This document shows positions 38,808 through 44,954 of a stretch of 64,000 bases of DNA, piece after piece. How positions within the stretch are numbered: the first letter of the stretch is position 1; each line of letters opens with the position of its first letter. A model generated the notes under the pieces. The model saw nothing but the letters and a program-made list of their open reading frames with translations. It was not told where the DNA came from and searched no databases. Source of the DNA: Escherichia coli. Its GTDB lineage: Bacteria > Pseudomonadota > Gammaproteobacteria > Enterobacterales > Enterobacteriaceae. The position numbers were made by a program, and so were the translations under genes. The stretch lies in NCBI RefSeq assembly GCF_030013205.1, contig NZ_CP122648.1. The stretch is one strand, 5' to 3'.

Positions 38808-39098
38808 ATGAAAAAGAAAAATTCTGGCTTTACTGCCAGCGGCCTCTCTCGGCCTGAAATCCGCCCCGGTGATATTTTCCGGGACACCAGACGCGGGGGA
38901 CGGGTGGTTATTCGTCACGTTACGCCAGGCAATATCACCTACCGCCGTGAGGCTTACGAATATGACTGCGTAATGCCGCGCCGTCAGTTTGATCGTGATT
39001 TTATTCTGGTGGAAAACAAACAACTGGCAGTGGCGAGACGTGCAGCCACGAATATTAAAAAAATCCGGGCAATGTTGGTTGCGGGAGGTAAGAAGTGA
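38808..39098 (+). CDS. hypothetical protein
   Basis: 96-aa ORF; stop overlaps the start of the replication gene. Confidence 0.5.
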   Translation: MKKKNSGFTASGLSRPEIRPGDIFRDTRRGGRVVIRHVTPGNITYRREAYEYDCVMPRRQFDRDFILVENKQLAVARRAATNIKKIRAMLVAGGKK

Positions 39099-40507
39099 AA
39101 AACGCACCGAGTCTAAAATATCAGCCGAAGGATAAATTCACTGAGGTAATCATTTTTGCCGGGACGGATGCTTACGCCCATGCTCAACACTGGATTGAAA
39201 GTGAAGGACGAAAACACGGCGATAACGTGCCTCCTGTTTACCTGGGGCCAAAGCAACTGGCAGACCTGGCGAATATCCGCATTATTGACGAGAAACGCCG
39301 TTTTGCGCGTGTCTATATCGCGGGGGAGATAGAGCCAATCCAGATCAATACTATCGCTGAAAAGCTGGCGCTGGCTGGCGTACAGGAGGCGAAATTATAC
39401 AAAGGTATCACCGACCAGGAACCGGAGAACTGGCGCGACTACCTGCAACGGATCCGCGAACAGGCTGAGCGCGAAGAAATGCTTACTGACGAGCAATACA
39501 GCCAGCGAAAAACCACGCTACCAATGAGCATTGGATCGGAAGGATACGATTCACAGCTTAGCTATGTGGTTAAGGGTGTGATTCCGGCTAATTCGTTGTG
39601 CAGCACATACGGTGCGAGCGGTTCTTATAAGTCGTTCCTTGCGTGTTCGTGGGCGTGTCATGTTGCTACCGGTATCCCGTGGGGAGGTCGCAGGGTTGTA
39701 CATGGTGCGGTGATGTATGTCGTTGGTGAGGGCGGGATCGGTGTTCCTCGTCGTATCAAGGCATGGGAACTGGTGAACAGTGAGCAGGTGAAAAATCTGT
39801 ACCTGGTAAATCGTCCAATTTTTCCGGCCGCACCGAGTGATGTTGATGAAATGGTTATTGCTGCCCGACAGGTTGAGCAGGAAACGGGTAAACCTGTACG
39901 CATGATTATTCTGGATACTCTGGCGCGTTGCTTTGGTGGCAGCGATGAAAATGATGCGCGGGATATGGGGGCATTTGTCCATGGATGTGACGAACTGAAA
40001 CGGCGTACAGGCGCTACAGTGCTGGTAATTCACCATTCCGGCAAGGATGAAACAAAGGGTGCGCGCGGTTCCAGTGCGTTTCGTGCAGCACTGGATGCAG
40101 AGTACCGGATACGCCGTGAAGGTGCAGGCAGTGAAGCCCTGGTTATCGCATGTACCAAGATGAAGGATGCGGAGGAACTGAAAGAAATGGCTTGCGATTT
40201 GCGCGAGGTTGAGCTTTTCAAGGATGAAGGCGGGGAGTTAATCACGTCATTGGTGCTGGAGGATAAGCCCCGTCCGCCAGTTGAACTGGAGCGCATCGAG
40301 TACGCTGCTAACAAGACAGAGAATCACGTCGCGCTATGGGGCTGTATCCGTTCACGCACGCAACGCGGAGATAAATGCACTATCCCGTTGTTGCGCGATG
40401 ACATGAAAAAGCTGGGGTATGAGATGAAACACTTCCGGCGCTGGCTGTACAAGCTGGAAGGTGACGGCGTAATCACTATTGACGGTGATGACGTGCGCCC
40501 ACTGTAA
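39095..40507 (+). CDS. replication initiator / helicase-like protein (RecA/DnaB-like ATPase)
   Basis: SD GGGAGG then GTG; Walker A-like GASGSYKSF, Walker B-like MIILDTLARCF, IHHSGKDETKGARGSSA; immediately followed by an iteron region. Confidence 0.7.
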   Translation: MKNAPSLKYQPKDKFTEVIIFAGTDAYAHAQHWIESEGRKHGDNVPPVYLGPKQLADLANIRIIDEKRRFARVYIAGEIEPIQINTIAEKLALAGVQEAKLYKGITDQEPENWRDYLQRIREQAEREEMLTDEQYSQRKTTLPMSIGSEGYDSQLSYVVKGVIPANSLCSTYGASGSYKSFLACSWACHVATGIPWGGRRVVHGAVMYVVGEGGIGVPRRIKAWELVNSEQVKNLYLVNRPIFPAAPSDVDEMVIAARQVEQETGKPVRMIILDTLARCFGGSDENDARDMGAFVHGCDELKRRTGATVLVIHHSGKDETKGARGSSAFRAALDAEYRIRREGAGSEALVIACTKMKDAEELKEMACDLREVELFKDEGGELITSLVLEDKPRPPVELERIEYAANKTENHVALWGCIRSRTQRGDKCTIPLLRDDMKKLGYEMKHFRRWLYKLEGDGVITIDGDDVRPL

Positions 40508-40900
40508 AAAGTGGGTAGCAAAAGTGGGGAGAGTGAGCAATGAGAGCCAAAGAAGCTATTTTTCCCCACTTTTAAACCTCTATATATACGCAAAAGTGGG
40601 GAGTGAAAAATTCAAAATAAAACAATGAATTATCAACTCGTGGAATCCCAATTTTTGGCGTGGTGAGAAATTGAAAAAGTGGGTAATAAAAATGGGTAGT
40701 GATGGGTAAATGAAAACTATGTGATGAAAGCAATAGGAAGATTAAAAAACAATCAATGCAATGTATTAACTAAAAATTAACTATTTACCCCACTTTTGCG
40801 TATATATAGAGGTTTAAAAGTGGGGGCTTAAAAATATATTTAAAATCATATTGTTATTAACTTCATAAATTCCCACCGGACAACGAGTGGGGAATTAAAA
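40508..40900. repeat. putative origin of replication: AAAGTGGG(G/T)A iterons plus two inverted 38-bp elements
   Basis: at least 8 iteron copies in both orientations; 40564-40601 is the exact reverse complement of 40788-40825; AT-rich spacers. Confidence 0.7.
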
Positions 40901-40909
40901 AAATTAGGA

Positions 40910-42905: not shown

Positions 42906-42943
42906 TGGTCGTGATTTTTTGGTGAAAAAGAGAGGTGGTAAAA

Positions 42944-43528
42944 ATGCCAGCAAGCAAAGAAGATTTGCGATTAAAACTGATGGAGGTGGTTAACGCTCTG
43001 TCAGAGTCGCAGGGCAGCACTCCGCAGGAGATTATCGAAATTCTGAATGCGATCCCCGCACAGGATTTCACAAAAGCGGACGAGGATGACGCGAATAAAA
43101 ACATCGTCGCGTCAGTCGAAGATGAATCCTCACTGGCAGAAGCCCAGGCTAAAGCGGATTCCGCATACAGCAATATGGGCCGTCGAGCTCCGGCCCCGTT
43201 TGCTGGTGAAAAGTCGATGGATTACCGCAAGCGTGCATTAATTGGTGCACAGAAGCTGGCTAAAAAATTCAGTGATGTGGATATTCGTTCCGTTTCAGAT
43301 TCTGCAACGCTGGCGGTGCTGGAAGATCAGATTTACCAGGCTGCAAAAGACAGTGTTCAGTGGGCTGTGGAAAATACGCCGGGCTATTTGCGTAAAACCG
43401 TAAGAATGGATGAAGCCGGACGGCGGATTACTGAATATCAGGGGGATCCGAATAACTGGCTTAGTGCTTTCAAAATCCCTCCCCGTCGCCTGGTCAAAAT
43501 TAACACTGCAAGCCTCGCGGGGGCATGA
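42944..43528 (+). CDS. hypothetical acidic protein
   Basis: about 194 aa from ATG 42944 with SD AGAGGTGG; acidic, probably helical. Confidence 0.5.
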   Translation: MPASKEDLRLKLMEVVNALSESQGSTPQEIIEILNAIPAQDFTKADEDDANKNIVASVEDESSLAEAQAKADSAYSNMGRRAPAPFAGEKSMDYRKRALIGAQKLAKKFSDVDIRSVSDSATLAVLEDQIYQAAKDSVQWAVENTPGYLRKTVRMDEAGRRITEYQGDPNNWLSAFKIPPRRLVKINTASLAGA

Positions 43529-43592
43529 AAAACGTGCTGAGTTCAGCCCTGCCGGATTTGGCGGGGCTTATTGCTTATAACCGGATAACATT

Positions 43593-44276
43593 ATGCTTTT
43601 AACAGAAATTGAGGCGGCGAAGCAGATTCGGGACGGACAGCTACCGTCGCCTTATCAGTTTTCCAACATGTGGCTGGTTAACCTGCGTATCACAGGAACC
43701 GGAATGGCCTACCGCGCCGAAGAAAAAGAATTTGTCTGGCGTTCACCGCAAACTTATCTCAATCCGCAGTTCCTGGAACGTTGCGCCGGAGTACCCGTCA
43801 TTATCGACCATCCCGAAAGCAAAACCCTTGAAGACGTGGGCGAACGGTCGCGCATTATTGGCACCGTCATGTTGCCGTATATTCGCGGTGACGAGGTGTG
43901 GGGCGTATGCCGGATTTACGGACAGGAAATCATCGATTACATCCAGAAAGCCCGAGGGGAGGTATCCACCAGTCCGTCGGTTGTGTTTTGTGGTGCCTCA
44001 GGTGGGGCAGAAGTTCCTGATGTAATGGGCGAGGACAATTTTTTTATTGAGGGTACGCCATTTCTTATCGATCACGTTGCGCTCGTGCCGCTTGGTGTTT
44101 GGGATAAGGGCGGGAAACCATCGGGCGTGGAAGTAACAACGCCGACAGCAGAAGAACAGCTTGCCGGAATGGTCCGGGACGTTATTGATGCGGCCTGCAA
44201 GCCAGCTCTGGAAAAACTGGAAGAAATATCCGGGCGGCTGGATCAACTGGAAAAAAACAGAGTGAGTGAATCATGA
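43593..44276 (+). CDS. hypothetical protein
   Basis: 227-aa ORF; stop overlaps the next start. Confidence 0.55.
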   Translation: MLLTEIEAAKQIRDGQLPSPYQFSNMWLVNLRITGTGMAYRAEEKEFVWRSPQTYLNPQFLERCAGVPVIIDHPESKTLEDVGERSRIIGTVMLPYIRGDEVWGVCRIYGQEIIDYIQKARGEVSTSPSVVFCGASGGAEVPDVMGEDNFFIEGTPFLIDHVALVPLGVWDKGGKPSGVEVTTPTAEEQLAGMVRDVIDAACKPALEKLEEISGRLDQLEKNRVSES

Positions 44277-44890
44277 AAATTGCTAAAAACTTAAATCTGA
44301 TTATCCCTGTGCGCACTGAAAAGGGTAATGGCTGGCTCCATGCCACGCCGATCAGCAAAGAGGTGTTTAAAGAGCATTTCTTCATCCTGAGTAAAACCTT
44401 TTCTGCCATTTTTTCTGAAGGTCTTGGTGTTGTTGCGGGTCCGCGCGTTGCCTGCCTTATGCTGGAGAAAATCTCCCGTGACTCCGGTTTATGGGATGGG
44501 GAGAAAGGCATACGTAATACGCTCATAAACGAAATTATTCGCCTGGCAAACCTTGTTTATCCAGTGGAGGGCAAAGGCTACGACACAATCCCTCTCGATA
44601 TGGCGCTGGAGCGTGAAATCGTTGATTTGGACGAAGTGGCGGGTGAACTTGTTTTTTTTACATGCGTCTCGTCGATAAATTCCCCGGAGCAGACGAAGGG
44701 GACTATGGATGCGGTGAATGGAATATGGAGCACTCAATGCTCGTCCTTGAGTCTTACGGAATGGATCGATTCATTGCCGACATTGAAGCCTGCCGTCAGT
44801 TCTGGCGCGACGGCGAACACGTCATCAGCGACATCCTCGACTACTCAGCCGGAGCCGGATTCAGAGACATCTGTGCAGATTCCGGTCTGA
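44273..44890 (+). CDS. hypothetical protein; 3' end uncertain
   Basis: 205-aa ORF with low-complexity Ser/Thr-rich tail; alternative frame 44662-44955 is open across the same region. Confidence 0.4.
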   Translation: MKIAKNLNLIIPVRTEKGNGWLHATPISKEVFKEHFFILSKTFSAIFSEGLGVVAGPRVACLMLEKISRDSGLWDGEKGIRNTLINEIIRLANLVYPVEGKGYDTIPLDMALEREIVDLDEVAGELVFFTCVSSINSPEQTKGTMDAVNGIWSTQCSSLSLTEWIDSLPTLKPAVSSGATANTSSATSSTTQPEPDSETSVQIPV

Positions 44891-44954
44891 ATGTAAAAAC
44901 AGCAGCTCAGTTTCGTGAGCTGCTCAAATTCAAAAATCCCGCAGGAGTATTGTA

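What the first reader, a model, noticed from the sequence alone, without database searches (positions are those of the whole stretch)
39095..40900. Replication gene followed by an iteron origin with two inverted 38-bp elements
The 470-aa protein has RecA/DnaB-like Walker A and B motifs. The 390-bp non-coding stretch after it carries at least eight AAAGTGGG(G/T)A iterons in both orientations. Two 38-bp elements (40564-40601 and 40788-40825) are exact reverse complements of each other, each built around CTATATATA and flanked by iterons. This is the rep-then-ori arrangement of satellite replicons and indicates the element replicates autonomously after excision.
Basis: partly seen in the sequence, partly recalled or inferred. 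Interest (0 to 1): 0.7.

Follow-up and report, generated by a model that had tools for sequence, protein, structure and literature searches.

The report
Phage-satellite replication gene and origin
This is the replication module (initiator-helicase gene followed by its repeat-rich origin) of a 14.7-kb phage-inducible chromosomal island inserted in E. coli yifB. The kind of element is already described, and here comparison of relatives shows which single amino acid of the initiator tracks which base of the origin repeats.

Summary
ORF 39095-40507 encodes a 470-aa RepA-type (RecA-fold) helicase. The 38-bp inverted repeat is exact, and 8 of the window's 13 near-matches to AAAGTGGGKA lie within 40508-40826.

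The interpretation also holds. The module sits in a 14.7-kb island that splits yifB and has the gene order of E. coli phage-inducible chromosomal islands (PICIs). Its Rep is 77% identical to the Rep of the published EcCIO42. In that family the origin lies just 3' of rep, and this was tested experimentally for EcCICFT073.

New support comes from 86 related loci:
- All carry 5-12 AAGTG(G/A)G repeats after rep.
- The G/A choice is uniform within a locus.
- It tracks one Rep residue: His446 with G, Asn446 with A (55 of 56 unique proteins).
- That residue sits at the start of the recognition helix of a predicted C-terminal winged-helix domain.

So Rep most likely binds the repeats itself and loads itself as the helicase.

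- The conserved core is one inverted repeat pair around CTGTATAYA, flanked by direct repeat clusters.
- The second 38-bp element belongs to a subgroup-specific extension.
- The exact 38-bp identity is unique to this lineage and looks like recent conversion.

This is a new member of a known kind, of modest interest.

The parts
34188..34203 (+). attL: left copy of the imperfect 16-bp direct repeat (ATTATCAATAGCGGAT) at the yifB/comM junction
   Evidence: The yifB 5' fragment ends here. The same insertion is present in ETEC1748.
34392..35609 (+). Tyrosine integrase (start codon uncertain)
   Evidence: PHROG 1 integrase, E 3e-64. RefSeq 'tyrosine-type recombinase/integrase' in relatives.
35977..36165 (+). 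AlpA-like HTH regulator/excisionase
   Evidence: PHROG 2790, E 7e-18.
38808..39098 (+). DUF4222 gene whose stop overlaps the rep start (GTGA). It is found directly upstream of rep in both Rep allele types.
39095..40507 (+). rep: 470-aa initiator-helicase. N-terminal alpha/beta domain (residues 1-128, nt 39095-39478), RecA-fold RepA/SF4-like ATPase (about residues 140-390) and C-terminal winged helix (residues 400-470, nt 40292-40504).
   Evidence: Pfam AAA_25. AF2 model with pLDDT 91.7. Foldseek match to RSF1010 RepA, TMt 0.72. PDB profile hit 1g8y, E 6e-8. C-terminal domain hits are all winged-helix DNA-binding domains. N-terminal domain is 49% identical to that of EcCICFT073 Pri-Rep.
40430..40432 (+). 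Codon 446 (His, CAC/CAT; Asn, AAC/AAT in relatives), the N-cap of the recognition helix. It is the residue that covaries with the iteron base.
40507..40530 (+). Left iteron cluster: two direct iterons (AAAAGTGGGTA, AAAAGTGGGGA) starting at the rep stop codon
   Evidence: Conserved family-wide. Variable bases 40514 and 40527 have MI 0.91 and 0.81 with residue 446.
40563..40602 (.). Core inverted iteron pair around an 18-nt TATATATA spacer (left 38-bp element, 40564-40601)
   Evidence: The pair sits at +57/58 after the stop in nearly all 68 unique origins, with a CTGTATAYA spacer. Bases 40566 and 40599 have MI 0.81 and 0.91.
40603..40674 (.). AT-rich, poorly conserved spacer
40675..40708 (+). 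Right core cluster: three direct iterons spaced about one helical turn apart (13 and 10 bp between starts); two of them are degenerate
   Evidence: Bases 40682 and 40695 have MI 0.91 and 0.70.
40709..40786 (.). AT-rich spacer that begins the subgroup-specific right extension
40787..40826 (.). Second inverted iteron pair around TATATATA (right 38-bp element, 40788-40825). Present only in an E. coli subgroup.
40826..40869 (.). Least stable duplex of the region (40-mer dG -38 kcal/mol against a window mean of -56). Invariant in five E. coli relatives. Candidate unwinding element of the extension.
40870..40893 (.). Terminal inverted pair of degenerate iterons, 17-26 bp upstream of the next gene (40910 or 40919). 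It switches GGG to GAG together with the other sites.
48901..48916 (+). attR: right copy of the direct repeat (ATTATAAATAGCGGAT). yifB resumes here.

Best explanation
The segment is the replication module of a Gram-negative phage-inducible chromosomal island (PICI) of the EcCIO42 Rep type. The island is 14.7 kb and is integrated in yifB/comM.

Rep is a single polypeptide with three parts:
- an N-terminal domain shared with other E. coli PICI Reps;
- a RecA-fold, RSF1010-RepA-like (SF4-type) hexameric helicase core;
- a C-terminal winged-helix domain.

Proposed mechanism, after helper-triggered expression and excision:
1. The winged helix binds the AAAAGTGGG(G/T)A iterons that start at the rep stop codon. 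His446, at the start of the recognition helix, probably reads the fourth base of the GTGGG core.
2. Direct iteron clusters on both sides, plus an inverted pair around an easily melted TATATATA spacer, concentrate Rep in both orientations.
3. Rep melts the AT-rich DNA and loads itself as the replicative helicase, without a separate loader.
4. Priming is presumably done by host DnaG, because the island encodes no recognisable primase.

Shown here: the anatomy, the homology, the fold predictions and the residue-to-base covariation. Inferred: binding, melting, self-loading and priming.

The second 38-bp element belongs to an extra 200-bp right extension found in one E. coli subgroup. Its perfect identity to the first element is best explained by recent conversion of the left element by the right one.
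For: Island identity:
- att repeats and a split yifB.
- The same backbone as EcCICFT073 and EcCIO42.
- Rep is 77% identical to EcCIO42 Rep.
- The literature places the origin 3' of rep, with iterons flanking AT-rich DNA, and shows replication for EcCICFT073 rep-ori (PMC6092414).
- SaPI Reps bind iterons through a C-terminal winged helix and self-load (PMC9371898).

Conservation:
- All 86 related loci carry 5-12 AAGTG(G/A)G copies within 420 bp after rep.
- The layout is the same family-wide: direct cluster, inverted pair around CTGTATAYA, direct cluster.

Covariation:
- His446 goes with GTGGG in 30 of 30 unique proteins, and Asn446 with GTGAG in 25 of 26. MI is 0.88 of 1.0 bit; the next best column reaches 0.34.
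- At nucleotide level, only the first base of codon 446 and the iteron variable bases reach MI of 0.7 or more. No other column in the last 300 nt of rep reaches 0.45.
- Where the last 75 aa are identical apart from residue 446, Asn gives 0 G / 10 A iterons and His gives 7-12 G / 1-2 A.
- Neighbouring proteins show nothing comparable.
- A K. pneumoniae relative has a different recognition helix (VRKSFPRW) and a different iteron (AAGTGCGGC) in the same layout. It is deposited as a closed 17-kb circle with no typed plasmid replicon.

Structure:
- The model has pLDDT 91.7, and residue 446 lies immediately before helix 447-456.
- The C-terminal domain matches LexA, ArsR, DtxR, MarR and ORC winged helices.
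- The core matches RSF1010 RepA.
- The origin holds some of the least stable DNA in the window.
Against: - No experiment exists on this Rep type. The published replication test used EcCICFT073, whose Rep has a different (SF3, D5-like) motor, and EcCIO42 did not transfer in that study.
- Codon 446 lies only 75 bp from the first iteron, so part of the association is co-inheritance of a C-terminal-domain-plus-origin module.
- One locus breaks the rule: L006 has His446 with 11 GTGAG iterons. L004 has a mixed origin.
- Foldseek E-values for the small C-terminal domain are weak (0.08 or higher).
- No primase was found, so the priming step is a guess.
- The right extension may serve as a Rep-controlled promoter region for the next gene rather than as origin.
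Confidence: 0.85

Rival explanations
1. The repeats are mainly operators. Rep, or another island regulator, binds them to control transcription of rep or of the downstream operon, and replication starts elsewhere or depends on the helper phage.
For: The terminal inverted pair 40870-40893 lies 17-26 bp upstream of the next gene. The right extension co-occurs with that 260-aa gene in a subgroup. Weak promoter-like hits occur at 40813-40840. Iteron-binding initiators often autoregulate (general knowledge).
Against: The conserved core sits directly 3' of rep in all members, whether or not that downstream gene is present. Promoter-like hits are no more frequent than in shuffled sequence (3 found against 2.5 expected). 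The positionally equivalent region of EcCICFT073 is needed for plasmid replication. The two roles are not mutually exclusive.
Confidence: 0.07
2. The module is a decayed remnant. It has the anatomy of an origin, but this copy no longer replicates.
For: Many E. coli PICI-like islands are partly degraded, and several relatives carry pseudogenes. EcCIO42 did not transfer in the published assay.
Against: rep is intact, and the catalytic residues conserved across 54 homologues are present. His446 is matched by GTGGG at 9 of 11 cores. The 1816-bp segment is 100% identical in two other strains.
Confidence: 0.06
3. The two 38-bp arms are terminal inverted repeats of a small non-autonomous transposable element, or a packaging (pac/cos) site, rather than origin parts.
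For: The inverted repeat is exact and 38 bp long, enclosing 186 bp. A TerS-like gene lies in the island.
Against: No target-site duplication flanks the arms. Relatives are collinear with diverged arms, and the arms are themselves iterons that switch with Rep residue 446. No lambda-type cosN is present in the window.
Confidence: 0.02

Closest known systems
EcCIO42 (E. coli 042 PICI) rep-ori, one of the four 'Pri-Rep' alleles in Fillol-Salom et al. 2018 (PMC6092414)
   Same: Rep is 77% identical over its full length and has the same three domains. DUF4222 lies upstream. Iterons begin at the stop codon in the same layout: direct cluster, inverted pair around CCTGTATACA, direct cluster.
   Different: EcCIO42 has Asn446 and GTGAG iterons, whereas the window has His446 and GTGGG. 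EcCIO42 lacks the 200-bp right extension with the second inverted pair. It sits at a different integration site (tqsA, not yifB) and carries a different downstream cargo (SSB and a capsid homologue).
EcCICFT073 pri-rep-ori, the experimentally tested Gram-negative PICI replicon
   Same: Same island backbone and the same position of the origin. Iterons occur in both orientations around AT-rich DNA. The Rep N-terminal domains are 49% identical. A DUF4222 gene is coupled upstream.
   Different: The motor is SF3/D5-type (D5_N, DUF5906, Pox_D5), not RecA-fold AAA_25. The iteron is GGTAGA rather than AAAGTGGG. The C-terminal domains are unrelated in sequence.
SaPI Rep / PriRep self-loading helicases and SaPI origins (PMC9371898)
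   Same: One protein is both initiator and helicase. A C-terminal winged helix reads short iterons. There are 6-12 iterons immediately downstream of rep, an AT-rich centre, and iterons in opposite orientations on each side.
   Different: SaPI motors are AAA+ (SF3 or MCM-like, moving 3' to 5'). The motor here is RecA-fold and RSF1010-RepA-like, a class that usually moves 5' to 3'. There is no detectable sequence similarity, and no solved structure of this architecture exists.
RSF1010 (IncQ) RepA helicase
   Same: It is the closest solved fold and the only PDB sequence-profile hit for the ATPase core.
   Different: RSF1010 splits the work among RepA (helicase), RepC (iteron binding) and RepB' (primase). 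Here the DNA-binding domain is fused to the helicase, and no RepC or RepB' homologue is present.
SV40 large T antigen and papillomavirus E1 origins (functional analogy only)
   Same: Inverted pairs of short recognition sites next to easily melted AT-rich DNA, read by a helicase that assembles on its own origin.
   Different: The proteins are unrelated (AAA+ SF3 with a different origin-binding domain). The comparison comes from general knowledge and was not tested here.

Membership tests
Gram-negative PICI (EcCI) as defined by Fillol-Salom et al. 2018 | Island of about 10-20 kb bounded by direct repeats at a specific chromosomal site | tested here: met
   14.7 kb lie between 16-bp imperfect repeats at 34188-34203 and 48901-48916, splitting yifB. 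Relatives sit at tRNA-Thr, tRNA-Pro, abgR/smrA and tqsA.
Gram-negative PICI (EcCI) as defined by Fillol-Salom et al. 2018 | int at the left end, an alpA regulator, and genes transcribed in one direction | tested here: met
   Integrase and AlpA-like HTH were found by PHROG. Nearly all annotated genes of the identical ETEC1748 copy are on one strand.
Gram-negative PICI (EcCI) as defined by Fillol-Salom et al. 2018 | A rep (pri-rep) gene of a PICI allele, followed directly by an iteron origin with AT-rich DNA | tested here: met
   77% identity to EcCIO42 Rep. 8-11 iterons lie within 400 bp after the stop codon, at 30% GC.
Gram-negative PICI (EcCI) as defined by Fillol-Salom et al. 2018 | rep-ori drives autonomous replication | not testable with these tools
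   Shown only for EcCICFT073. Indirect support: a related element is deposited as a closed 17-kb circle.
Gram-negative PICI (EcCI) as defined by Fillol-Salom et al. 2018 | Induction, packaging and transfer by a helper phage | not testable with these tools
   No helper was identified. No lambda-type cosN is present in the window. A TerS-like ORF lies at 47046-47573.
Gram-negative PICI (EcCI) as defined by Fillol-Salom et al. 2018 | No phage structural or lysis genes beyond a few hijacking genes | tested here: inconclusive
   There is no portal, large terminase or tail set. However, the island has a DUF2213 / prohead-protease-like gene and a 679-aa protein with a transglycosylase-like C-terminus.
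SaPI-type self-loading Rep helicases | C-terminal winged-helix domain that reads the iterons | tested here: met
   H-H-H-beta-beta topology. The top structural matches are all winged-helix DNA-binding domains. Residue 446 covaries with the iteron base. Binding itself was not tested.
SaPI-type self-loading Rep helicases | AAA+ motor of SF3 or MCM (SF6) type | tested here: not met
   The motor is a RecA-fold AAA_25 domain closest to RSF1010 RepA.
SaPI-type self-loading Rep helicases | 6-12 iterons downstream of rep, an AT-rich centre, and at least 2 iterons per side in opposite orientations | tested here: met
   See the iteron map and the family-wide architecture.
IncQ (RSF1010) replication system | RepA helicase working with a separate iteron-binding RepC and a separate RepB' primase | tested here: not met
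   The helicase core matches. No island ORF matched an initiator or primase family in PHROG, NCBIfam or Pfam. The DNA-binding domain is fused to the helicase.
Classical iteron-plasmid initiators (Rep_3 / WH1-WH2 type) | An initiator made of two winged helices with no ATPase, dependent on host DnaA, DnaB and DnaC | tested here: not met
   The only Pfam hit is AAA_25. There is a single C-terminal winged helix.

The most novel reading that the evidence does not exclude
A single residue at the start of the Rep recognition helix (His446 or Asn446) sets which of two origin dialects (GTGGG or GTGAG) the initiator accepts. Lineages have switched repeatedly by one C-to-A (or A-to-C) change in the codon, coupled to concerted change of all 6-12 iterons. 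This would create orthogonal replicon specificities among co-circulating satellites. In addition, this Rep would be a self-loading initiator-helicase built on a RecA-fold, SF4-like motor. That architecture has no solved structure or biochemistry, whereas the characterised satellite Reps are AAA+.
Probability: 0.55. Interest if true: 0.5.

Novelty: new member of a known kind. Interest (0 to 1): 0.3.

Why it matters
The module marks this 14.7-kb yifB insertion as a phage satellite that can probably amplify itself once induced. That matters for horizontal transfer in pig-associated E. coli, since identical copies occur in porcine ETEC strains.

Two points go beyond annotation:
- The family offers a clean natural experiment in protein-DNA recognition. 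One amino acid changes, one base changes, and the change is repeated at every site of the origin. This could be used to design orthogonal satellite or plasmid replicons.
- The Rep type pairs a RepA/DnaB-class motor with an origin-reading winged helix. It is an uncharacterised way of building a self-loading replicative helicase.

None of this changes the general picture of PICI biology.

Tried and rejected
- MITE or transposon reading of the 38-bp arms: rejected. There is no target duplication, and relatives are collinear with diverged arms.
- The exact 38-bp inverted repeat as a conserved requirement: rejected. The other 67 unique origins have longest inverted repeats of only 8-14 nt.
- Direction of conversion: the window's left element departs from the family consensus (CCTGTATATAC) and equals the reverse complement of the right element, which resembles the right elements of relatives. 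So the right element converted the left one.
- Simple linkage as the explanation of the 446-iteron association: largely rejected. No other column in the last 300 nt of rep reaches MI 0.45, and DUF4222, PerC and ProQ show nothing comparable.
- LexA box at CTGTATATA: only a half-site, with no ACAG partner (read from the sequence).
- DnaA box: the nearest candidate, TTATCAACT at 40630, fails the consensus (read from the sequence).
- Lambda-type cosN: absent.
- Rfam: nothing in the island at gathering thresholds. The only hit is the ilv leader region outside it.
- PDB sequence search with the single protein: no hit.
- Pfam on the downstream 260-aa protein: no hit.
- NCBIfam: nothing informative.
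- The phage collection holds no close relative of rep-ori.
- EcCIED1a could not be fetched because the accession is not in the collection.
- EcCIRM13514, ATCC 25922 and EcCIMP1 carry primase-type Reps, not this type.
- Mutually exclusive iteron classes among islands of one genome: not supported. Several IMG genomes hold two or three islands of the same class (contig names, classes).
Full report
**1. What is in the sequence**

The ORF 39095-40507 (+ strand, GTG start, 470 aa) is real. Its start overlaps the stop of the preceding DUF4222 gene. The identical gene in RefSeq is named 'helicase RepA family protein'.

Pfam gives AAA_25 over residues 150-319 at E 8e-44. In an alignment of 54 homologues, the Walker A lysine (K179), the Walker B D274/T275 and several other catalytic-core residues are at least 90% conserved.

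The intergenic stretch that follows (40508 to 40909 or 40918) has about 30% GC. The two 38-nt arms, 40564-40601 and 40788-40825, are perfectly complementary.

AAAGTGGGKA occurs exactly five times in the 64-kb window, all between 40508 and 40685, against 0.25 expected. With one mismatch allowed, 8 of 13 hits fall in 40508-40826, and the rest are at chance density. With a relaxed core I count 11 sites:
- two direct sites at the rep stop codon;
- an inverted pair around a TATATATA spacer;
- three direct sites spaced about one helical turn apart;
- a second inverted pair around TATATATA;
- a terminal inverted pair just before the next gene.

**2. Context**

The module lies in a 14.7-kb insertion that splits yifB/comM. 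The insertion is bounded by an imperfect 16-bp direct repeat at 34188-34203 and 48901-48916.

Its genes, nearly all on one strand, are integrase, AlpA-like regulator, Ant-like protein, Icd-like protein, small ORFs, DUF4222, rep, ori, a 260-aa unknown, ProQ/FinO-like, PerC-like, and then a variable block.

This is the backbone of E. coli phage-inducible chromosomal islands. EcCICFT073 and EcCIO42 show the same order, including the DUF4222-rep coupling and PerC. Close relatives of the window's island sit at other classical PICI sites.

In total, 777 of 5,426 complete E. coli genomes carry a related rep. Two porcine ETEC strains are 100% identical over the 1,816 bp.

**3. What is already known**

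Fillol-Salom et al. 2018 (PMC6092414) defined Gram-negative PICIs. [quoted passage not shown] They showed that EcCICFT073 rep-ori maintains a temperature-sensitive plasmid in a rep- and ori-dependent way. They also reported four 'Pri-Rep' alleles in E. coli.

One of those alleles is that of EcCIO42. Its Rep is 77% identical to the window's Rep over the full length and is followed by the same kind of origin.

EcCICFT073's Rep shares only the first 125 residues or so (49% identity). Its motor is SF3/D5-like and its iteron is GGTAGA.

For SaPIs, Rep is a self-loading helicase whose C-terminal winged helix reads 6-12 iterons located just downstream of rep (PMC9371898).

**4. New evidence that Rep reads these repeats**

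A scan of IMG/VR returned 80 loci with Rep at 62-98% identity. Every locus has 5-12 copies of AAGTG(G/A)G in the 420 bp after rep.

The fourth core base is G or A, and it is nearly uniform within a locus. In His-type origins 91% of GTGRG cores are GTGGG. In Asn-type origins 96% are GTGAG.

Across 56 unique Rep proteins with a clear class, residue 446 predicts the class. His goes with G in 30 of 30, and Asn goes with A in 25 of 26. MI is 0.88 of 1.0 bit, and the next column reaches 0.34. On a tree built from residues 1-395, the two states are interspersed, with at least 17 changes.

Codon 446 is only 75 bp from the first iteron, so I tested linkage in three ways:
- In a nucleotide alignment of the last 300 nt of rep plus the origin, only the first base of codon 446 and the variable bases of iterons 1-6 (40514, 40527, 40566, 40599, 40682, 40695) reach MI of 0.7 or more. 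No other rep column reaches 0.45.
- On a background where the last 75 residues are identical except for position 446, the Asn form has 0 G / 10 A iterons. Twelve His forms have 7-12 G / 1-2 A.
- Neighbouring proteins (DUF4222, PerC, ProQ) show no comparable column.

A more distant relative in a K. pneumoniae element has a different recognition helix (VRKSFPRW, against MKHFRRW here). It has a different iteron (AAGTGCGGC) laid out in the same way, including the central CCTGTATACA.

There are exceptions. L006 has His446 with 11 GTGAG sites, and L004 has a mixed origin.

**5. Structure**

The AlphaFold model is confident, with a mean pLDDT of 91.7. It shows:
- an alpha/beta N-terminal domain (residues 1-128);
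- a RecA-fold core whose best-covered match is the RSF1010 RepA hexameric helicase (TMt 0.72), which is also the only PDB sequence-profile hit (E 6e-8);
- a C-terminal H-H-H-beta-beta domain (helices 409-423, 430-439 and 447-456; strands 460-463 and 466-469).

Modelled alone, the C-terminal domain matches only winged-helix DNA-binding domains: LexA, ArsR, DtxR, MarR and ORC. TM-scores are 0.5-0.74 but E-values are weak.

Residue 446 immediately precedes the third helix. That is the position from which a winged-helix protein typically reaches into the major groove. His contacting G and Asn contacting A fit common recognition chemistry, which is general knowledge and was not tested here.

**6. 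Architecture and the 38-bp elements**

Across the family the conserved origin is about 205 bp long. It consists of 2-3 direct iterons at the stop codon, an inverted pair around CTGTATAYA at +57/58, a partly AT-rich spacer, and then 3-5 direct iterons.

The window belongs to an E. coli subgroup with an extra 200 bp or so (40709-40909). This extension holds the second inverted pair, an invariant and very unstable AT tract at 40826-40869, and a terminal pair next to the following gene. All of these sites switch GGG to GAG together with the others.

Only the window's lineage has exact 38-bp identity; the other 67 unique origins have longest inverted repeats of 8-14 nt. The window's left element departs from the family consensus and equals the reverse complement of the right element. 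This points to recent conversion of the left element by the right. The paired 38-bp elements are real but are not a defining feature.

**7. Mechanism proposed**

After induction and excision, Rep binds the iterons through its winged helix. The direct clusters and the inverted pair bring Rep together in both orientations. AT-rich DNA melts, either at the TATATATA spacers or in the flanking tracts. The RecA-fold ring then loads without a separate loader.

No primase was detected in the island, so host DnaG is the likely source of primers. The shared N-terminal domain resembles a segment of phage primases (PHROG 864) and may mediate that or another conserved contact.

These steps are inferences from homology and anatomy.

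**8. Indirect support for autonomy**

A K. pneumoniae satellite-like element carries a Rep of this family along with integrase, capsid and terminase genes. It is deposited as a closed 16,971-bp circular 'plasmid' with no typed plasmid replicon. This is consistent with an extrachromosomal replicating form, although an induced excision product captured by assembly cannot be excluded.

**9. Verdict**

The finding is correct and well read. It is a new member (new integration site, His/GTGGG dialect, extended origin) of the EcCIO42-type PICI replication module.

The main added value of this analysis is the residue-to-base covariation and the recognition that this Rep type uses an SF4-like rather than an AAA+ motor. 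Interest is modest (0.3).

Noticed in passing
window 34188-34203 and 48901-48916: The island splits yifB/comM (5' fragment 34002-34211, 3' part from about 48917). yifB did not turn up in searches of the main text or supplements of the 2018 PICI paper.
   Followed up: partly
window 34230-34320 and 48779-48792: Short repeats of the type TTCCACGTTGT / GTGCCACGTTGT occur next to int, and one copy (TTGTTCCACGTTGT) lies near the right end. They are possibly integrase arm-type sites.
   Followed up: no
window 42935-47573: The block downstream of PerC is variable. It holds a DUF2213 / prohead-protease-like gene (43593-44276), 205-aa and 97-aa unknowns, a 679-aa protein with a transglycosylase / tape-measure-like C-terminus (44955-46994), and a TerS-like HTH protein (47046-47573). 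The ETEC1748 island is otherwise identical but lacks 44273-46994. The block suggests a helper other than lambda-like cos phages.
   Followed up: partly
L006 (E. coli ETEC1738) 8736-10640: This is the only locus where Rep has His446 but all 11 iterons are GTGAG. Its C-terminal 75 residues are otherwise identical to Asn-type relatives. It is either a recent inactivating or relaxing mutation, or a sign that His tolerates A.
   Followed up: partly
L004 (E. coli TUM1881) 10386-10830: A chimeric origin: iterons 2 and 3 are GTGGG and the rest are GTGAG. Rep has Asn446 and a divergent C-terminal tail. It looks like a recombination junction inside the origin.
   Followed up: no
window 39095-39478; L002 2242-2622: A domain of about 125 aa is shared (49% identity) by PICI Reps with unrelated motors (RecA-fold here, SF3/D5 in EcCICFT073, and DUF927 or DUF5906 proteins on Klebsiella plasmids). 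It always lies downstream of a translationally coupled DUF4222 gene. Its function is unknown.
   Followed up: partly
L090 (K. pneumoniae CP018459.1, whole record): A 16,971-bp record deposited as a circular plasmid is really a satellite-like element with integrase, a DNA-binding protein, Rep of this family, capsid, head-tail adaptor, terminase and tape measure genes. An E. coli 10,790-bp 'plasmid' (NZ_CP148328.1) with a CFT073-type Rep looks similar.
   Followed up: partly
window 40575-40590 and +70 to +80 after rep in nearly all relatives: The motif CCTGTATA(T/C)A between the inverted iterons is conserved even where the iteron sequence differs (Klebsiella). It therefore seems to be read by something other than the specificity residue. 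It contains CTG, the preferred E. coli DnaG start triplet, but this connection is speculative.
   Followed up: no
window 33500-33750 (- strand): Rfam match to Rev39_5p_UTR (123 bits), cut off by the end of the searched stretch. It lies in the ilvL/ilvX leader region upstream of ilvG, is ordinary, and is outside the island.
   Followed up: no
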